The notes under the pieces: model-generated
What the model saw: the letters and a program-made list of their open reading frames with translations, nothing else
Told to the model about the DNA's origin: nothing
Database searches by the model: none
Shown: piece by piece, positions 1,464 through 18,547 of the stretch
Numbering within the stretch: the first letter of the stretch is position 1
Layout of the letters: each line of letters opens with the position of its first letter
Program-made: the position numbers and the translations under genes
Assembly (NCBI GenBank): GCA_963802505.1
Contig: CAWDJB010000002.1
Coordinates: 20,627-84,626 of the forward strand
Length of the DNA: 64,000 nt
Direction of reading: 5' to 3'
From: an uncultured Acidimicrobiales bacterium
Lineage (GTDB): Bacteria; Actinomycetota; Acidimicrobiia; Acidimicrobiales; DATKAS01

Positions 1464-3254
1464 ATGAGCGCCACCAGCACACACAAGGGCTTGCGCGACT
1501 GGGTCGACCACTGGGCGTCGATCTTCCAGCCCGCAGCAATCGAGTGGTGCGACGGCTCGGTAGAGGAGCACGACCGGCTGTGCGCAGCGCTCGTCGACGC
1601 GGGCACGTTCACCAAGCTCGCGAAGCGTCCGAACAGCTACTGGGCGCACTCCGACCCCGGTGACGTCGCGCGGGTCGAGGATCGCACGTTCATCTGCTCG
1701 GCCACCGAGCAAGAGGCGGGCCCGACGAACAACTGGCGCGACCCCGCGCAGATGCGCGCCGACATGCTCGAGCTGTTCACGGGCGCGATGCGCGGGCGCA
1801 CGATGTACGTGGTGCCGTTCTCGATGGGACCGCTCGGGTCGAACATCGCGCACATCGGCGTGCAGCTCACCGACTCGGCATATGTCGCCGTGAGCATGCG
1901 CACGATGACTCGCATGGGGCAGGCGGCGCTCGACGTCCTCGGGTCCGACGGTGAGTTCGTGCCGTGCCTCCACTCCGTCGGTGCGCCGCTCGAGCCGGGC
2001 GAGGCCGACGTGCCGTGGCCGTGCGACGCCGAGAACAAGTACATCGTCCACTTCCCCGACACGCGCGAGATCTGGTCGTACGGGTCGGGCTACGGCGGGA
2101 ACGCGCTTCTCGGTAAGAAGTGCTTCGCGCTGCGCATCGCCTCGGTGATGGCGCGCGACGACGGCTGGCTCGCCGAGCACATGCTCATCCTCAAGCTCAC
2201 GTCACCGAAGGGCGTCACCAAGTACCTCGCCGCCGCGTTCCCGTCGGCGTGCGGGAAGACGAACCTGGCGATGCTCGTGCCGACGATCCCCGGCTGGAAG
2301 GTCGAGACGGTCGGTGACGACATCTGCTGGATGAAGTTCGGCGACGACGGTCGGCTCTACGCGATCAATCCCGAGGCCGGGTTCTTCGGCGTCGCGCCCG
2401 GCACGGGCATGGACACGAACCCCAACGCGATGATGACCCTCGAGGAGAACTGCGTCTTCACGAACACCGCGCTGACCCCGGACGGCGACGTGTGGTGGGA
2501 GGGCATGACGCCCGAGAAGCCGCCGCGGCTCACCGACTGGCTGGGCAACCCCTGGACGCCAGAGACGCCGACGCTCGCAGCGCACCCGAACGCGCGGTTC
2601 ACTGCTCCCGCCTCCCAGTGCCCGTCGATCGCGCCCGAGTGGGAAGACCCGAAGGGTGTGCCGATCTCGGCGATCCTCTTCGGCGGCCGCCGCGCCTCGG
2701 TCGTGCCGCTCGTGAACGAAGCGACCTCGTGGGAGCACGGCGTGTTCCTCGGTTCGATCATGGCCTCGGAGACGACTGCCGCGGCGGCCGGCGCGGTCGG
2801 CAACCTGCGGCGAGACCCGTTCGCGATGCTGCCGTTCTGCGGCTACAACATGGCCGACTACTTCGGCCACTGGCTCGAGATCGGGCGGGCAACCGATCCC
2901 GACAAGCTGCCGTCTCTCTTCATGGTCAACTGGTTCCGCAAGGACGCCGATGGCCGCTGGTTGTGGCCGGGGTTCGGCGAGAACAGCCGGGTGCTCAAGT
3001 GGGTGTTCGAGCGCGTGGCCGGAGAGGCCGAGGCCGTGAAGACGCCGATCGGGCTGGTGCCGACGCTCGACGCCATCTCGACCGAAGGGCTCGACGTGAC
3101 CGAGGCCGACATGGAGCAGCTGCTCGCGGTCGACCTGAGCGGTTGGCGCGCGGAGGTCCCACTCATCGAGGAGCACTACGCGCAGTTCGGCGATCACCTG
3201 CCGACAGAGCTGCGCGCCGAGCTCGTGGAACTCGAGAAGCGCCTCGCTGGCTGA
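1464..3254 (+). CDS. pckG: phosphoenolpyruvate carboxykinase (GTP)
   Basis: 596 aa with full-length resemblance to GTP-PEPCK: [13 protein letters not shown] kinase-1a P-loop, [32 protein letters not shown]. Confidence 0.95.
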
Positions 3255-3272
3255 CGCCCTACGCTCACGCAC

Positions 3273-3509
3273 ATGGCCGTGAGCGCGTACATCCTCATCC
3301 AGACAGAGGTGGGCAAAGCAGCCAAGGTGGCCTCTGAGGTCGGAGCGGTCGACGGTGTCGTCGCGGCCGACGACGTGACGGGGCCCTACGACGTGATCGC
3401 GAAGGCCGAGGCCGGAACGGTCGACGACCTCGGGCGCCTCGTCGTCAGCCGCATCCAGATGATCGACGGCATCACCCGCACCCTCACCTGCCCGGTGGTC
3501 AACCTCTAG
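3273..3509 (+). CDS. Lrp/AsnC ligand-binding (RAM) domain-only small protein
   Basis: 78 aa, AYILIQTEVGK...V.GPYDVIAKAEA...L...V.RIQMIDGITRT is a typical stand-alone AsnC-type RAM domain. Confidence 0.7.
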   Translation: MAVSAYILIQTEVGKAAKVASEVGAVDGVVAADDVTGPYDVIAKAEAGTVDDLGRLVVSRIQMIDGITRTLTCPVVNL

Positions 3510-15537: not shown

Positions 15538-15882
15538 TTACGCCCAGCCGAGCTCGGCCAAGCGGTTGTCGTCGATGCCGAAGTGGTGCGCGACCTCGTG
15601 CACCACTGTGACCCGCACCTGACGAACGACCTCGGCTTCGGTCGCGCACATCGCGCAGATCGGCAACCGGTAGATGGTGATCCTGTCGGGCATCACCATC
15701 CCCGCGTACCCCGCATCCCGCGACGTCAACGGCACGCCGTGGTAGAGCCCGAGGAGATTCGCCTGACGGCCGCGGTCCTCGACGAACACGGCCACGTTGT
15801 CCATCTTCGACCCGAGCTCGGGAGGGATGCCGTCGAGCGCCTCGGCCACCAGCTCCTCGAACCGCTCCGCCGACACGAGCAC
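15538..15882 (-). CDS. zincin-like metallopeptidase family protein (DUF1025-type)
   Basis: 114 aa with the HEVAHHFG zinc motif near the C-terminus. Confidence 0.75.
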   Translation of the reverse strand: MLVSAERFEELVAEALDGIPPELGSKMDNVAVFVEDRGRQANLLGLYHGVPLTSRDAGYAGMVMPDRITIYRLPICAMCATEAEVVRQVRVTVVHEVAHHFGIDDNRLAELGWA

Positions 15883-15917
15883 GCCTCGGACGCTATCGAC
15901 GGTGCCCTACTGACGCG

Positions 15918-16012
15918 CTGTCCACAATGTGACGGCCGTCACCCACATATCGTCCACAAGGTCTCCACAGGAGTGTCCACAAGTTATCCAGAGATGTCGA
16001 AAGTTGTCGAAA
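15918..16012 (+). promoter_or_regulatory. phased array of DnaA-box-like GTCCACA motifs followed by a TGTCGAAA direct repeat
   Basis: Same-orientation motifs: CTGTCCACA 15918-26, TCACCCACA 15939-47, TCGTCCACA 15950-58, GTCTCCACA 15961-69, GTGTCCACA 15973-81, TTATCCAGA 15984-92. TGTCGAAA occurs at 15995-16002 and 16005-16012. The CCACA ends are spaced 21, 11, 11 and 12 bp. Confidence 0.35.
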
Positions 16013-16052
16013 CTCTCTTGACGGTTGTGTTGCGAATCGGCAAAGTGACGCC

Positions 16053-16390
16053 ACCGGATGCGCAATGCACCGCACGCCGCACGGGGTAAAACCCGGGTGG
16101 CGAGCAGCACGCCGAAAGGTGAGCGCCCGGCTCGGGGGAGCCAAAGCCCGCAAGGGGGATGGAGCTTCCGGGCGGGGTGGTGCGGCGAGTGTGCGGCACG
16201 AGTCACGTCGAAGGTGTCGTCCACCGCCGGGTGGGTCCACGCAAGTGGGCACTCTCGGAGGCCAGGGGACGCCCGAAGCGCCGGAGCGCTGCAAGGCGCG
16301 AAGGAAGCGACGAGACGTGGAACGGGGTGCGGCCCCGAGGAGTACGGACGGCTTCGGCCGGAAGGCTACTCGGGGCCGAACCGCGTTTTG
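16053..16390 (+). ncRNA. candidate structured RNA or uvrD2 5' leader (family unknown; ends approximate)
   Basis: No coherent coding frame. Tetraloop hairpins at 16110-21 (GAAA), 16147-56 (GCAA), 16235-50 (GCAA), 16286-99 (GCAA) and 16349-60 (UUCG). Long-range helix 16171-80/16221-28. Perfect 10-bp helix 16330-39/16369-78, then UUUU at 16386-89. Upstream TTGACG at 16018-23 and CAAAGT at 16041-46. Confidence 0.3.
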
Positions 16391-16471
16391 AACAGGCTCT
16401 CGCCCTACGCGCCGTTGCGTTCACGGGGGTTTTCCACAGCCCTTGGGGATAGCGAATGAGGGTCGCCGACA

Positions 16472-18547
16472 GTGCACCACCCCCTCCCTAAGGTGACCGC
16501 CGTGCCCGACGACGCTGCCGCGAGTGACGCCCACGCGCTGCTCGACGATCTCGACCCCGAGCAGCGCGCCGCAGTCACGAGCTCGGGTGCCCCGCTCTGC
16601 ATCGTCGCGGGTCCCGGCGCCGGCAAGACGCGGGTGCTCACCCGTCGCGTCGCGTACCGACTCGCGACGGGCACGGCCGACCCCGGCCACGTCCTCGTCA
16701 TCACCTTCACGCGCAAGGCCGCGACCGAGCTGAACCGTCGGCTCGGCGCGCTGGGCCTGCGCGGGCAGGCGGTTGCCGGCACCTTCCACGCGGTCGCCCT
16801 GGCCCAGCTGCGCCAGCGCTGGACCGACGCCGGCGTGACTCCCCCGTCGCTGCTCGACCGCAAAGCCGGTCTCCTCGCGCCGCTGGTCAGCCAATCGGCC
16901 AAACGCGGCGGGCAAGCGCAGTACGTGCAGCCCGCCGATGTCGCGGCCGAGATCGAATGGGCGAAGGCGCGCATGATCAACCCCGGTGCGTACGCGGCCG
17001 CGTGCGACGAAGCCGGCCGCCGCCCCCCGCTGACACCCACGATCGTGGCGTCGATCTACGAGCGCTACGAGCGGCTGAAGCGCGAACGCGGGCTGATCGA
17101 CTTCGACGACGTGCTCATCCAGTGCGCACGCGCGATGCGCGACGACCGTGACTTCGCAGCCGTGCAGCGGTGGAAGTTCCGACATCTCTTCGTCGACGAG
17201 TTCCAAGACATCAACCCACTGCAGCTCCATCTGCTCGAAGCCTGGCGCGCCGAGCGACCCGATCTCTGCGTCGTCGGCGATCCCGACCAGGCCATCTACG
17301 GCTGGAACGGAGCCGACGTCAGCGCGCTGGCCGACTTCGGCGGTCGGTACCCGGGTTCGACGATCGTGCGGCTCGAGACCAACTACCGATCGACGCCGCA
17401 GATCGTGCGCACGGCGTCTCGAGTGCTCGCACGGCGAAGCCGGCGCACGGTGCAGGGCGACGGGCCGATCCCGTCGATCTCCGTGCACCCCACCGACGTC
17501 GCCGAAGCGGCAGCGGTGGCGCGACGCATCCGCGATCGGCGCGGGCCCGCGATGGGTTGGCGCCATCTCGCCGTCCTCGCTCGCACCAACGCGCAGCTCA
17601 CGTTGATCGAAGAAGCGCTGCGCGCGGCCCAGGTGCCGTGCCGAATGCGCGGCGGAGGCAGCCTGCTCGAGCAGCCCGAGGTCAAGGCGTGGCTGCGCGA
17701 TCCGCGCCATCGCGGGCCGACACCGGTGGCTCCCCGCCTCGCCGACCTCGAGGCGTTGCTCGACGAGGCCGACGACGAGGCGCCTGGCAACGATCCTGCG
17801 AGCGGGCTCACCGACGAGCGCCGACGCAACCTCGAAGAGCTCGTGCGCGTCGGGCATGAGTATCTCGCGCTCGATCCGACCGGCACCTCGGTCGGGTTCG
17901 CCGAATGGCTGAGCGCAACGCTGCGCACTGACGACATCTCGCCCGACGCCGACGCGGTCGATCTCGTGACCTTCCACCGCGCGAAGGGGCTCGAGTGGCC
18001 GGTGGTCGTCGTCACTGGCCTCGAGCGTGGGCTCGTTCCGATCGGCCAGGCGACCACTCCCGAGGCCCTCGAAGAGGAGACGCGGCTCCTCTACGTCGCG
18101 CTGACGCGTGCCGAGCGCGAGCTCTACATCACGTGGGCGGAGCAACGCACCTTCGGCACCCGCCAGATGAACCGTTCGCCCTCCCCTCTGCTCGCATCCA
18201 TCGAGGACGAGTGCGAGGCGATGCGCCAAGGGTCCCCCGAGACCGACCACCGCGCCTCGCTCCGCGACGCGCGGCGCACGCTCGACGCGGCCCGCTCCGG
18301 CAAGCGCGACGGGCACGATCCGCTCTTCCTGGCGCTGAAGGAGTGGCGACTTGCCCGCGCCCGGGCAGCCGAGACGCCCGCATACACGATCTTCGACGAC
18401 AAGACCCTCACCGCGATCGTCGAGATCGAGCCCCGCACGAAGACCGCGCTACGGGCGGTGCCGGGCATCGGCCCGGTGAAGCTCGAACGCTACGGCGACG
18501 AGGTGCTCGAGCTCGTGTCGGCGTTCGTCTCGTCACGATCGACCTGA
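16472..18547 (+). CDS. uvrD2: UvrD/Rep-family DNA helicase with C-terminal HRDC domain (UvrD2-type)
   Basis: 691 aa. Walker A AGPGAGKTRVLT, helicase motifs (FDDVL, VDEFQDIN, YRS), and C-terminal LKEWRLARARAAETPAYTIFDDKTLTAIV...VPGIGPVKLERYG (HRDC). Exact start (GTG 16472 or a downstream GTG) is uncertain. Confidence 0.85.
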   Translation: MHHPLPKVTAVPDDAAASDAHALLDDLDPEQRAAVTSSGAPLCIVAGPGAGKTRVLTRRVAYRLATGTADPGHVLVITFTRKAATELNRRLGALGLRGQAVAGTFHAVALAQLRQRWTDAGVTPPSLLDRKAGLLAPLVSQSAKRGGQAQYVQPADVAAEIEWAKARMINPGAYAAACDEAGRRPPLTPTIVASIYERYERLKRERGLIDFDDVLIQCARAMRDDRDFAAVQRWKFRHLFVDEFQDINPLQLHLLEAWRAERPDLCVVGDPDQAIYGWNGADVSALADFGGRYPGSTIVRLETNYRSTPQIVRTASRVLARRSRRTVQGDGPIPSISVHPTDVAEAAAVARRIRDRRGPAMGWRHLAVLARTNAQLTLIEEALRAAQVPCRMRGGGSLLEQPEVKAWLRDPRHRGPTPVAPRLADLEALLDEADDEAPGNDPASGLTDERRRNLEELVRVGHEYLALDPTGTSVGFAEWLSATLRTDDISPDADAVDLVTFHRAKGLEWPVVVVTGLERGLVPIGQATTPEALEEETRLLYVALTRAERELYITWAEQRTFGTRQMNRSPSPLLASIEDECEAMRQGSPETDHRASLRDARRTLDAARSGKRDGHDPLFLALKEWRLARARAAETPAYTIFDDKTLTAIVEIEPRTKTALRAVPGIGPVKLERYGDEVLELVSAFVSSRST

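What the first reader, a model, noticed from the sequence alone, without database searches (positions are those of the whole stretch)
16053..16390. Unassigned ~340-nt hairpin-rich element upstream of uvrD2: candidate novel structured RNA or regulatory leader
The 589-bp gap between the zincin peptidase gene (start 15882, minus) and uvrD2 (16472, plus) is by far the largest non-coding stretch in a window where genes are usually under 60 bp apart or overlapping. Four track ORFs overlap here in several frames, all with Arg/Gly/Pro artefact composition, so protein coding is unlikely. On the plus strand there is a dense run of short GC helices capped by stable tetraloops: CGCC-GAAA-GGUG 16110-16121, CCC-GCAA-GGG 16147-16156, GUCCAC-GCAA-GUGGGC 16235-16250, GCGCU-GCAA-GGCGC 16286-16299 and CGGC-UUCG-GCCG 16349-16360. 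There are also a long-range helix GGCGGGGUGG 16171-80 / CCACCGCC 16221-28 and a perfect 10-bp helix CGGCCCCGAG 16330-39 / CUCGGGGCCG 16369-78. The last helix encloses the UUCG hairpin and is followed by UUUU at 16386-89. GNRA loops read correctly only on the plus strand. A -35-like TTGACG (16018-23) and a CAAAGT hexamer 17 bp downstream (A2 and T6 conserved) could drive it. I found no RNase P (GGAAAGUCCGG), tmRNA (tag ORF, CCA-acceptor arm), SRP or B12-box signatures.
Basis: partly seen in the sequence, partly recalled or inferred. Interest (0 to 1): 0.7.

Follow-up and report, generated by a model that had tools for sequence, protein, structure and literature searches.

The report
New structured RNA gene beside uvrD2
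The gap between a peptidase gene and the uvrD2 helicase gene in an uncultured soil Acidimicrobiales bacterium holds a roughly 340-base, heavily folded non-coding RNA gene that matches no catalogued RNA family. Its promoter sits behind a regularly spaced row of sites resembling binding sites for the replication initiator DnaA, and what the RNA does is still unknown.

Summary
All five tetraloop hairpins, the 10-bp helix and the UUUU run are at the stated coordinates. The plus strand folds far better than shuffled sequence (z = -5.1; minus strand -2.2).

I collected 16 distinct orthologues, all from one narrow clade of uncultured soil Acidimicrobiales and all lying between the same two genes. They keep a three-domain fold: 98.9% of pair cells are standard pairs on the plus strand against 85% on the minus strand. 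Seven pairs show compensatory changes. Peripheral hairpins change length but mostly stay capped by GNRA loops. Indels break every ORF.

Rfam 15 gives no match, and plasmid and phage collections give none. Close relatives outside the clade have only a 25-100 bp spacer, so the whole ~600-bp module is lineage-specific.

It is probably not a uvrD2 leader. uvrD2 keeps the ancestral leaderless promoter (TAAGGT, 7 nt, GTG at 16502), and a candidate antiterminator pairing is not conserved.

The 100 bp upstream of the RNA is the most conserved part (91-97% identity). It carries a same-orientation array of TTGTCCACA-like DnaA-box 9-mers spaced about 11 bp apart, running into the -35 element.

Verdict: a real, new, narrowly distributed structured RNA gene. 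Its function is unknown, and DnaA control is plausible but untested.

The parts
15918..16012 (+). Array of same-orientation DnaA-box-like 9-mers. Starts and sequences: CTGTCCACA 15918, TCACCCACA 15939, TCGTCCACA 15950, GTCTCCACA 15961, GTGTCCACA 15973, TTATCCAGA 15984, ATGTCGAAA 15994, TTGTCGAAA 16004. Start-to-start spacing is 21, 11, 11, 12, 11, 10, 10 bp. The array ends 6 bp before the -35 element.
   Evidence: 5 of the 7 window-wide matches of at least 8/9 to TTGTCCACA or TTATCCACA lie in 15918-16438, all on the plus strand; the block is nearly invariant (91-97% identity). The actinobacterial consensus TTGTCCACA is taken from PMC4285127 Table 1. DnaA binding itself is inferred, not shown.
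15930..15943 (.). Palindrome GTGACG-NN-CGTCAC inside the divergent promoter region. It looks like an operator and overlaps one box of the array.
   Evidence: both arms are invariant in 11 sequences while the central 2 nt vary (GG, AG, CC, GC, AC).
16018..16046 (+). Putative promoter of the RNA: -35 TTGACG (16018-23), a 17-nt spacer, and -10 CAAAGT (16041-46). The predicted transcription start lies about 16050-16053.
   Evidence: invariant except in L095, which has CACAGT; not called by the generic sigma-70 scan. The promoter assignment and the 5' end are inferred.
16050..16197 (+). RNA domain I. A long interrupted closing helix (16050-71 with 16179-97) encloses three hairpins: 16075-16102 (variable length, replaced by a GCAA tetraloop in short versions), 16107-16124 (GAAA loop) and 16125-16178 (GCAA loop, variable length).
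   Evidence: Compensatory pairs at A3 columns 110:152 and 113:149. Hairpin-length polymorphism, mostly capped by GNRA loops.
16204..16319 (+). RNA domain II. It is closed by CACGUC/GACGUG (16204-09 with 16314-19) and holds hairpin 16213-16273 (GUCCAC-GCAA-GUGGGC at its tip) and hairpin 16274-16312 (GCGCU-GCAA-GGCGC above a 3x3 GGA/GAG internal loop).
   Evidence: Pair 195:303 varies as U-A, U-G and C-G. Pair 215:245 changes from C-G to U-A in L090.
16320..16389 (+). RNA domain III. A long bipartite hairpin (including the 10-bp helix 16330-39/16369-78 and the UUCG-capped tip 16349-60) is followed by UUUU 16386-89. It is the presumed intrinsic terminator and 3' end.
   Evidence: (I1). It is nearly invariant across orthologues. 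The tip-closing pair varies as C-G, A-C and A-U (column 337:348); the U-run is too short for the generic terminator scan.
16429..16452 (+). Conserved block GTTTTCCACAG-CCCYTGGGGA-YA between the terminator and the uvrD2 promoter. It contains a further DnaA-like box (TTTTCCACA, 16430) and a CCCC-N-GGGG palindrome.
   Evidence: Its function is unknown. It could be a regulatory site for uvrD2 or an alternative-sigma promoter.
16489..16504 (+). Leaderless promoter and start of uvrD2: -10 TAAGGT (16489-94), 7 nt, then GTG at 16502.
   Evidence: the orthologues have ATG at this position; relatives without the RNA carry the same TA(A/G)GGT-N7-9-ATG/GTG directly next to the peptidase gene.
15880..15895 (-). 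Leaderless promoter and start of the zincin peptidase gene: -10 TAGCGT (plus-strand coordinates 15890-95), 7 nt, then GTG (15882-15880).
   Evidence: Read directly. L083 has TAGGGT plus 7 nt at the same place. Pfam Zincin_1, E = 2e-29.

Best explanation
The gap holds an independent gene for a roughly 340-nt, highly structured non-coding RNA, about 16050-16389 on the plus strand.

Shown:
- The sequence is under purifying selection.
- Its variation preserves a three-domain fold, read on the plus strand.
- It is not coding.
- It matches no Rfam family.
- It exists only in one narrow clade of uncultured soil Acidimicrobiales.
- In that clade the whole module was inserted between two divergent leaderless genes. 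The module comprises the box array, promoter, RNA, terminator hairpin and a downstream conserved block.

Inferred:
- Transcription starts about 7 nt after CAAAGT, from a TTGACG-N17-CAAAGT promoter.
- Transcription ends at the long hairpin plus UUUU.
- Promoter output is set by a protein that polymerises on the helically phased head-to-tail array of TTGTCCACA-like boxes. DnaA is the most likely candidate. That would tie RNA level to replication-initiator status.
- The RNA acts in trans as a folded molecule, as a protein-binding or RNP scaffold. Five GNRA loops and interchangeable peripheral hairpins suggest a compact tertiary fold. It is unlikely to act as an anti-Shine-Dalgarno base-pairing sRNA or as a uvrD2 leader.

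The partner and the cellular function are not known.
For: Fold and strand:
- z = -5.06 on the plus strand against -2.24 on the minus strand.
- Sixteen distinct orthologues share a 101-pair consensus. 98.9% of cells are paired, against 36-45% when partners are slid by 1-3 columns.
- Seven pairs have changes on both sides, against 2.9 +/- 1.1 in shuffles; 1 of 500 shuffles reaches this.
- The same pairs read on the minus strand are only 85.0% standard, because 228 cells are G.U.
- The covariance model scores 216 bits on the plus strand and 33 bits on the minus strand.

Peripheral hairpins:
- They differ in length between lineages but mostly remain capped by GNRA loops (GCAA, GAAA, GCGA) or by a recurring GGGUG(A/U)UGAGCCC module.

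Conservation:
- Box array and promoter 91-97% identity.
- RNA 84-88%.
- Spacer after the terminator 67-77%.
- Third codon positions of the flanking genes 57-75%.

Not coding, not known:
- No conserved ORF.
- No Rfam match.

Independence from uvrD2:
- uvrD2 keeps its leaderless TAAGGT-N7-GTG promoter, as in RNA-less relatives.
- The candidate antiterminator pairing is not conserved.

Clade-specific module:
- Present wherever zincin identity is 84% or more.
- Absent, with a 25-100 bp spacer, where identity is 83% or less.

DnaA-like array:
-, with the consensus from PMC4285127.
Against: - There is no expression data, so the transcript, its ends and its abundance are all inferred.
- The -10 (CAAAGT) lacks the T1 of the TANNNT hexamers that the neighbouring leaderless genes use. 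The generic scan calls neither a promoter nor a terminator.
- The orthologues are close (mean column identity 88%) and fall into about five lineages. Covariation is therefore modest and confounded by phylogeny.
- 60 of the 101 predicted pairs never vary.
- Two competing pairings for 16171-80 remain unresolved.
- DnaA binding is inferred only from similarity to a consensus. Several boxes match only 6-7 of 9 positions. The GTCCACA core could belong to another regulator.
The one metagenome scan needed an exact 20-mer, and the genome scan was anchored on the peptidase gene.
- Read-through of a 4-U terminator into uvrD2 cannot be excluded.
Confidence: 0.6

Rival explanations
1. The RNA is a cis-regulatory 5' leader of uvrD2, such as a riboswitch or a protein-dependent attenuator. 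The folded domains would sense a signal, and the 16320-16389 hairpin would act as a conditional terminator governing read-through into uvrD2.
For: - It is co-directional with uvrD2 and lies 112 nt upstream of it.
- It ends in a terminator-like hairpin with a weak 4-U tract that could leak.
- A 10-nt stretch, 16070-79, is 90% complementary to the 5' arm of the terminator (I11).
- It is always found next to uvrD2.
Against: - uvrD2 retains the ancestral leaderless promoter TAAGGT-N7-GTG found in relatives that lack the RNA.
- The candidate antiterminator pairing is broken (UG to AA) without compensation in L001, L002, L087 and L090.
- The terminator hairpin is nearly invariant rather than a variable expression platform.
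- The spacer between it and uvrD2 is the least conserved segment and varies in length from 95 to 123 nt.
- There is no similarity to any riboswitch or leader family in Rfam.
Confidence: 0.15
2. It is an RNA-polymerase-binding regulatory RNA, a functional analogue of 6S RNA or of actinobacterial Ms1. It would be abundant and stable and would sequester RNAP. This is a specific version of the trans-acting reading.
For: - Its size (~340 nt) is close to Ms1 (~300 nt).
- Ms1 homologues in different actinobacterial genera share no detectable sequence similarity, so a lack of similarity is not decisive (PMC9130861).
- A promoter conserved as strongly as this one fits a highly expressed stable RNA.
- The neighbouring gene encodes a UvrD-family helicase. 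From my own knowledge, that family interacts with RNAP in other bacteria.
Against: - The predicted fold is three branched domains, not a rod with a central bubble.
- The Ms1 synteny of HAD-IB hydrolase and oxidoreductase is absent; the neighbours are zincin, uvrD2, a bPH_2 protein, galT and galK.
- The Rfam scan of the region at E<=10 lists no 6S hit.
- The distribution is far narrower than expected for a housekeeping RNAP regulator.
Confidence: 0.1
3. The selected object is DNA, not RNA. It would be a DnaA-box cluster acting as a titration site, a DARS/datA-like site or a vestigial or secondary origin, and the downstream GC-rich sequence would fold well only incidentally.
For: - The most conserved part is the untranscribed box array.
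- The boxes are phased like a DnaA oligomerisation region.
- Further TCCAC motifs occur inside the RNA region at 16217 and 16236, all on the plus strand.
- B. subtilis has DnaA-box clusters in intergenic regions (PMC2533591 abstract).
Against: - Substitutions downstream of the promoter follow RNA pairing rules on one strand only: 98.9% against 85.0% standard pairs, with 7 compensated pairs.
- Hairpins are exchanged for other hairpins that mostly keep GNRA caps.
- There is no GC-skew switch, and no dnaA signature in the window.
- The DNA reading does not explain 340 bp of conserved sequence that lacks strong boxes.
Confidence: 0.07
4. It is chance folding of GC-rich spacer, a decayed gene or a mobile-element remnant with no function.
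For: - High-GC sequence folds stably.
- The element is lineage-specific and arose by insertion.
Against: - z = -5 against dinucleotide shuffles.
- Conservation is well above that of codon third positions across lineages whose UvrD2 proteins are only 75-83% identical.
- There are no matches in plasmid, phage or viral collections.
- There is no second copy in 728 kb of held sequence.
Confidence: 0.03

Closest known systems
Orphan large structured bacterial ncRNAs found by comparative genomics (raiA motif, OLE, GOLLD, ROOL and HEARO-type candidates)
   Same: - It is several hundred nucleotides long, with multi-domain branched folds.
- It has GNRA tetraloops and variable peripheral hairpins.
- It has its own promoter and terminator.
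- The evidence comes from conservation and covariation, with function unknown at discovery.
   Different: - There is no sequence or structure match to any of them in Rfam 15.
- The distribution is far narrower: one clade of Acidimicrobiales, one copy per genome, one fixed locus.
- It carries a DnaA-box-like array on its promoter.
Ms1 RNA (Mycobacterium, Streptomyces) and 6S RNA
   Same: - It is an actinobacterial, ~300-nt, stand-alone structured RNA in a long intergenic region.
- Sequence is poorly conserved between groups, so homology cannot be ruled out by sequence alone (PMC9130861).
   Different: - The Ms1 synteny (HAD-IB hydrolase and oxidoreductase) is absent.
- The fold is branched into three domains rather than a rod with a central bubble.
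- RNAP binding is untested.
DnaA-controlled promoters and DnaA-box clusters (B. subtilis DnaA-box clusters; from my own knowledge, B. subtilis sda and E. coli dnaA, nrdAB and uvrB P3)
   Same: - Several boxes close to the consensus sit in one orientation at about one helical turn apart, upstream of and abutting a promoter.
- The locus is next to a DNA-repair helicase gene, as with the DnaA-regulated uvrB promoter in E. coli.
   Different: - The product is a large structured RNA, not a protein.
- Binding has not been shown.
- Several boxes are degenerate (6-7 of 9 matches).
- The locus is not near dnaA or oriC.
Riboswitch or attenuator leaders
   Same: - A folded RNA followed by a terminator-like hairpin upstream of a co-directional gene.
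   Different: - The downstream gene keeps its own leaderless promoter.
- There is no conserved alternative pairing.
- There is no Rfam match.

Membership tests
Any Rfam 15 family (including RNase P, tmRNA, SRP, 6S, ydaO, raiA, cobalamin) | A covariance-model match at or near the family's gathering score | tested here: not met
   There were 0 gathering-score hits in the whole window. At E<=10 on 15800-16560 only three chance hits appeared, at 15-18 bits against cut-offs of 31-168. Six orthologous loci at E<=5 gave nothing in the element.
Ms1 RNA | Conserved synteny with a HAD-IB hydrolase / 'inhibition of morphological differentiation' gene and an oxidoreductase gene | tested here: not met
   The criterion comes from PMC9130861. 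The neighbours here are zincin peptidase, uvrD2, a bPH_2/SHOCT protein, galT, galK, a thioesterase, an Exo_endo_phos nuclease and DsbA.
Ms1 RNA / 6S RNA | A rod-like fold with a large central bubble (Ms1: plus two short terminal hairpins) | tested here: not met
   The MFE and the RNAalifold consensus give three branched domains. Suboptimal folds were not explored, so this is not an absolute exclusion.
Ms1 RNA / 6S RNA | Binds the RNA polymerase core (Ms1) or the sigma-A holoenzyme (6S) | not testable with these tools
   This needs RIP-seq or co-sedimentation experiments.
Riboswitch / transcription-attenuation leader | The regulated gene is transcribed through the element and has no promoter of its own | tested here: not met
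   uvrD2 retains TAAGGT-N7-GTG, the same leaderless arrangement as in relatives that lack the RNA.
Riboswitch / transcription-attenuation leader | Conserved, mutually exclusive terminator and antiterminator pairings | tested here: not met
   The only candidate (16070-79 with 16323-32) loses two pairs without compensation in four orthologues.
Structured ncRNA gene (generic) | Substitutions preserve base pairing on one strand, with compensatory changes | tested here: met
   98.9% of cells are paired on the plus strand and 85.0% on the minus strand. Seven pairs have changes on both sides, against 2.9 +/- 1.1 in shuffles (1 of 500). Slid controls give 36-45% paired. The support is modest because the sequences are closely related.
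Structured ncRNA gene (generic) | A discrete transcript with defined ends | not testable with these tools
   No expression data are available. The promoter and terminator are inferred from sequence.
DnaA-box cluster / DnaA-regulated promoter | Several matches to the DnaA-box consensus (TTGTCCACA in actinobacteria), clustered beyond chance | tested here: met
   Four of the 5 window-wide matches with at most one mismatch, and 5 of the 7 matches of at least 8/9 to either consensus, lie in 15918-16438. All are on the plus strand, in an array phased at 10-12 bp. The consensus is from PMC4285127.
DnaA-box cluster / DnaA-regulated promoter | DnaA protein binds the site and changes transcription | not testable with these tools
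   This needs EMSA, footprinting, ChIP or reporter assays.
Chromosomal origin (oriC) | Next to dnaA/dnaN, a GC-skew sign change, and an AT-rich unwinding element | tested here: not met
   There is no GC-skew switch at 16 kb and no DnaA signature motif in any frame of the window. The lowest local GC is 53%, which is not a clear unwinding element.
Intrinsic (Rho-independent) terminator | A GC-rich hairpin directly followed by a U-rich tract | tested here: inconclusive
   A long GC-rich hairpin is followed by UUUU at 16386-89. The tract is too short for the consensus scan, which needs at least 5 T in 8 bases.

The most novel reading that the evidence does not exclude
This is a new class of large structured RNA whose synthesis is set directly by the replication initiator. 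DnaA would polymerise on the phased box array and switch the RNA promoter. The folded RNA would then act as an RNP or decoy in replication-linked genome maintenance, possibly with the adjacent UvrD2 helicase or with RNA polymerase. It would be a replication-status signal carried by RNA, for which I know of no precedent in bacteria.
Probability: 0.12. Interest if true: 0.8.

Novelty: new variant of a known kind. Interest (0 to 1): 0.55.

Why it matters
- Large, highly structured bacterial RNAs outside the classic set (rRNA, RNase P, tmRNA, SRP, 6S, riboswitches) are rare, and each has pointed to new biochemistry.
- This one adds a candidate from Acidimicrobiia, a poorly studied and mostly uncultured class.
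- It is unusually well delimited. The locus has a before-and-after comparison, with sister lineages holding 25-100 bp where this clade has about 600 bp.
- The RNA gene is paired with what looks like a DnaA oligomerisation array. If that array is real, it would link an RNA regulator to the replication initiator.
- The narrow distribution and the lack of expression data limit its immediate impact.
- The work also corrects the local annotation. Both flanking genes are leaderless, and uvrD2 starts at 16502.

Tried and rejected
- **Rfam.** I ran a gathering-score scan of the window and permissive scans of the region and of six orthologous loci. Nothing matched.
- **Protein coding.** Six overlapping ORFs had no Pfam hit. 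Their frames are broken by indels, and L004 and L005 have early stops. Their codon-position GC pattern is not gene-like. Rejected.
- **Distant homologues by sequence.**
  - blastn and nhmmer against 80 peptidase-anchored genomic loci found only the five closest.
  - The exact 20-mer scan of metagenomes gave 5 true and 4 chance hits.
  - A covariance model of the 3' 189 nt found no further copy in 728 kb.
- **Mobile or plasmid origin.** There were no blastn matches in the plasmid or phage collections and no exact promoter match in viral contigs. The flanking genes are ordinary housekeeping genes.
- **Chromosomal origin.** No GC-skew switch and no dnaA in the window. Rejected.
- **Antiterminator switch.** The pairing 16070-79 with 16323-32 is not conserved.
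- **Trans or cis pairing with uvrD2 upstream sequence.** The G-rich stretch 16165-83 is 79% complementary to the C-rich 16474-92 (I3). Changes in the L001 group are not compensated, and that stretch now looks like the spacer of the uvrD2 promoter.
- **Ms1 identity.** Synteny and fold do not fit.
- **CsrA-type GGA sponge.** By my own hand count and estimate (no tool call), the nine GGA triplets are about what the base composition predicts. Dropped.
- **'Largest gap in the window'.** My GC3-based coding filter was too crude to decide.
- **tRNA promoters as a local reference.** The window contains no tRNA genes.
Full report
**1. What is in the sequence**

The window is GC-rich (about 69%). It comes from an uncultured Acidimicrobiales bacterium: the closest relatives of the peptidase gene, at 86-93% amino-acid identity, are all soil metagenome-assembled genomes labelled Acidimicrobiales.

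The zincin-like peptidase gene (15538-15882, minus strand; Pfam Zincin_1, E = 2e-29) and the UvrD/HRDC helicase gene (plus strand) are confirmed.

These are five short GC helices capped by GAAA, GCAA (three times) and UUCG, the 10-bp helix 16330-39/16369-78, UUUU at 16386-89, and TTGACG-N17-CAAAGT at 16018-46.

The plus strand of 16040-16395 folds at -190.8 kcal/mol, against -164.2 +/- 5.3 for dinucleotide shuffles (z = -5.06). The minus strand gives z = -2.24. The segment is purine-rich on the plus strand (GC skew about +0.22).

**2. Not a known RNA and not a protein**

Rfam 15 gives no match at gathering score anywhere in the window. Permissive scans of the region and of six orthologous loci give only noise.

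The six overlapping ORFs have no Pfam hit and lack the GC3>GC1>GC2 pattern of the real genes here.

They are not conserved either. Indels of 15-16 nt, single bases and larger variable-length blocks separate the orthologues. The ORF from AUG 16058 ends after 10 codons in L004 and 20 in L005, and runs in different frames elsewhere.

**3. Orthologues and distribution**

- A genome scan anchored on the peptidase returned 80 loci. Only the five closest (L001-L005) contain sequence similar to the gap.
- An exact 20-mer from the RNA's 5' end found five more copies in metagenomes, plus four chance matches.
- Look-ups of peptidase homologues at 84-90% identity gave further copies.
- In total there are 16 distinct full-length orthologues plus several truncated ones, always arranged as peptidase, element, uvrD2.
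- Relatives whose peptidase is 83% identical or less have uvrD2 only 25-100 bp from the peptidase gene and nothing resembling the element.
- A covariance model of the 3' 189 nt scores 190-216 bits on the full-length copies held among the sources searched. A truncated copy, L099, scores 99 bits. Nothing else in 728 kb scores above 20 bits, apart from minus-strand echoes of the palindromic terminator.
- There are no matches in plasmids, phages or viral contigs.
- The surrounding genes are housekeeping genes: galT, galK, a thioesterase, an Exo_endo_phos nuclease and DsbA.

The roughly 600-bp module is therefore a chromosomal insertion specific to one narrow clade. I could not scan whole genomes with a structure-aware model, so more diverged copies at other loci cannot be excluded.

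**4. Evidence that the RNA fold is selected**

Against L001-L005, identities are as follows:

| Segment | Identity to window |
|---|---|
| Box array and promoter | 91-97% |
| RNA | 84-88% |
| Spacer after the terminator | 67-77% |
| Zincin codon third positions | 67-75% |
| uvrD2 codon third positions | 57-66% |

RNAalifold on the 16 sequences gives 101 pairs. On that structure 98.9% of cells are standard pairs, against 36-45% when the 3' partners are slid by 1-3 columns. Seven pairs show changes on both sides, against 2.9 +/- 1.1 in shuffles; 1 of 500 shuffles reaches that number.

Clear cases of covariation:
- Column 195:303 varies as U-A, U-G and C-G.
- Column 337:348 varies as C-G, A-C and A-U.
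- Column 215:245 changes from C-G to U-A in L090.
- Columns 110:152 and 113:149 also covary.

Read on the other strand, the same pairs are only 85.0% standard, because 228 cells are G.U. This fixes the strand.

Three peripheral hairpins change length between lineages, yet they mostly end in GNRA loops or in a recurring GGGUG(A/U)UGAGCCC module. That pattern is typical of large folded RNAs.

There are caveats. The sequences are close (88% mean column identity, about five lineages), 60 of the 101 pairs never vary, and the shuffle control does not remove phylogenetic signal.

**5. Anatomy**

- **Domain I, 16050-16197.** An interrupted closing helix encloses three hairpins.
- **Domain II, 16204-16319.** It is closed by CACGUC/GACGUG and holds two GCAA-capped hairpins, one above a GGA/GAG internal loop.
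- **Domain III, 16320-16388.** A long bipartite hairpin with a UUCG tip is followed by UUUU.

It overlaps the hairpin helix of domain I, so it may be an alternative or tertiary contact.

A helix between 16045-49 and 16231-35 is probably not real. It lies upstream of the likely start and is broken in L095.

**6. Leader or separate gene?**

In relatives without the element, uvrD2 begins 7-9 nt after a TA(A/G)GGT hexamer. Examples are L007 (GCGTAGGGT-N8-ATG), L011 (CCTAAGGT-N8-ATG) and L091 (GGTAGGGT-N7-GTG). This is the standard actinobacterial leaderless arrangement.

The window clade keeps exactly this: TAAGGT 16489-94, 7 nt, GTG 16502, with ATG in the orthologues.

The 'AAGGTGA' is therefore a -10 hexamer, not a ribosome-binding site. 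uvrD2 starts at 16502, not 16472, and does not need the upstream promoter. The peptidase gene is leaderless too (TAGCGT, 7 nt, GTG).

Three further observations make a uvrD2 leader unlikely (about 0.15):
- The spacer after the terminator is poorly conserved and variable in length.
- The terminator hairpin is nearly invariant.
- The only candidate antiterminator pairing is uncompensated.

Leaky read-through cannot be excluded.

**7.

The 100 bp upstream of the RNA is the best-conserved part of the locus.

It carries 9-mers resembling the actinobacterial DnaA box TTGTCCACA (PMC4285127 Table 1). They start at 15918, 15939, 15950, 15961, 15973, 15984, 15994 and 16004. All are on the plus strand and are spaced 21, 11, 11, 12, 11, 10 and 10 bp apart. 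The array ends 6 bp before the -35 element.

Four of the five matches with at most one mismatch in the whole 64-kb window fall in this gap, counting one more box (TTTTCCACA, 16430) in a conserved block upstream of the uvrD2 promoter.

Head-to-tail boxes at one helical turn are how DnaA oligomerises on DNA; that statement rests on my own knowledge of oriC and DnaA-regulated promoters.

The locus is not an origin. There is no GC-skew switch and no dnaA in the window.

The boxes are absent from relatives that lack the RNA, so they belong to the RNA module.

DnaA binding is an inference. The GTCCACA core could instead serve another regulator. A GTGACG-NN-CGTCAC palindrome at 15930-43 suggests a second factor.

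**8. Most likely mechanism**

*Shown:* a selected, strand-specific, three-domain RNA fold, with a conserved promoter-like region and a terminator-like end.

*Inferred:*
- It is an independent gene transcribed from TTGACG-N17-CAAAGT.
- That -10 is weak and lacks T1, which fits a promoter dependent on an upstream factor.
- Its output is set by a protein, most likely DnaA, assembling on the phased array.
- The RNA works in trans as a folded scaffold or decoy for a protein.
- It is purine-rich and lacks the C-rich loops of actinobacterial anti-SD sRNAs (that comparison rests on my own knowledge). Its five GNRA loops suggest tertiary packing.

An RNAP-binding role like that of Ms1 or 6S is possible, but the fold and synteny do not fit.

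I put about 0.85 on 'real structured RNA on the plus strand'. I put about 0.6 on the full statement, meaning a stand-alone gene with a box-array-controlled promoter. I put about 0.4 on DnaA specifically.

**9. Novelty and interest**

The RNA belongs to no catalogued family. In kind it joins the orphan large structured bacterial RNAs.

Two things are new: the association with a DnaA-box-like array, and a very clean insertion history.

Its narrow distribution, the absence of expression data and the unknown function keep the score moderate, at 0.55.

Noticed in passing
window 15918-16012 and 16430-16438: A helically phased, same-orientation array of TTGTCCACA-like (DnaA-box-like) 9-mers lies directly upstream of the RNA promoter. 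One more box sits upstream of the uvrD2 promoter. The array is the most conserved part of the locus and is absent from relatives that lack the RNA.
   Followed up: yes
window 16489-16504, 15880-15895; L007, L011, L018, L091, L094: Both flanking genes look leaderless, with a TANNNT hexamer 7-9 nt before the start codon. uvrD2 therefore starts at GTG 16502, not 16472, and the apparent Shine-Dalgarno 'AAGGTGA' is really the -10 hexamer TAAGGT.
   Followed up: yes
window 15930-15943: A perfect palindrome GTGACG-NN-CGTCAC has invariant arms and a variable centre across orthologues. It looks like the operator of an unidentified dimeric regulator in the divergent promoter region.
   Followed up: partly
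window 16429-16452: The block GTTTTCCACAG-CCCYTGGGGA-YA is strongly conserved. It loosely resembles a GTTT-N12-GGGWAT stress-sigma (SigB/SigF-type) promoter as well as a DnaA box. Its role is undecided.
   Followed up: partly
L005 about 3250-3330 (minus strand) and L083, at the uvrD2 start (alignment): Three tandem 18-19-nt copies of GATGGACGCGGTGA(C/A)CT precede the uvrD2 start in these two genomes. Each contains ATG GAC GCG GTG A(C/A)C TGA, a five-codon mini-ORF ending in a stop. It appears to be a tandem duplication of the start region.
   Followed up: no
A3 columns 39-51 (L004), 73-87 (L003, L004, L096-L101, L005, L083, L095), 124-136 (L095): The same hairpin module GGGUG(A/U)UGAGCCC, with a 7-nt UG(A/U)UGAG loop, appears at different peripheral positions of the RNA in different lineages, in place of GNRA-capped hairpins. 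It may be an interchangeable docking or protein-binding module.
   Followed up: no
window 16165-16183 versus 16474-16492: A G-rich RNA segment (CUUCCGGGCGGGGUGGUGC) is 79% complementary to the C-rich stretch just upstream of the uvrD2 -10 hexamer. Changes in the L001 group are not compensated, so I treated it as chance or as promoter-spacer composition.
   Followed up: partly
window 16217-16225 and 16232-16240: Two further TCCAC-containing near-boxes (TCGTCCACC, GGGTCCACG) lie inside the RNA gene on the plus strand, within helices of domain II. Whether this is coincidence or a trace of how the module evolved is unknown.
   Followed up: no
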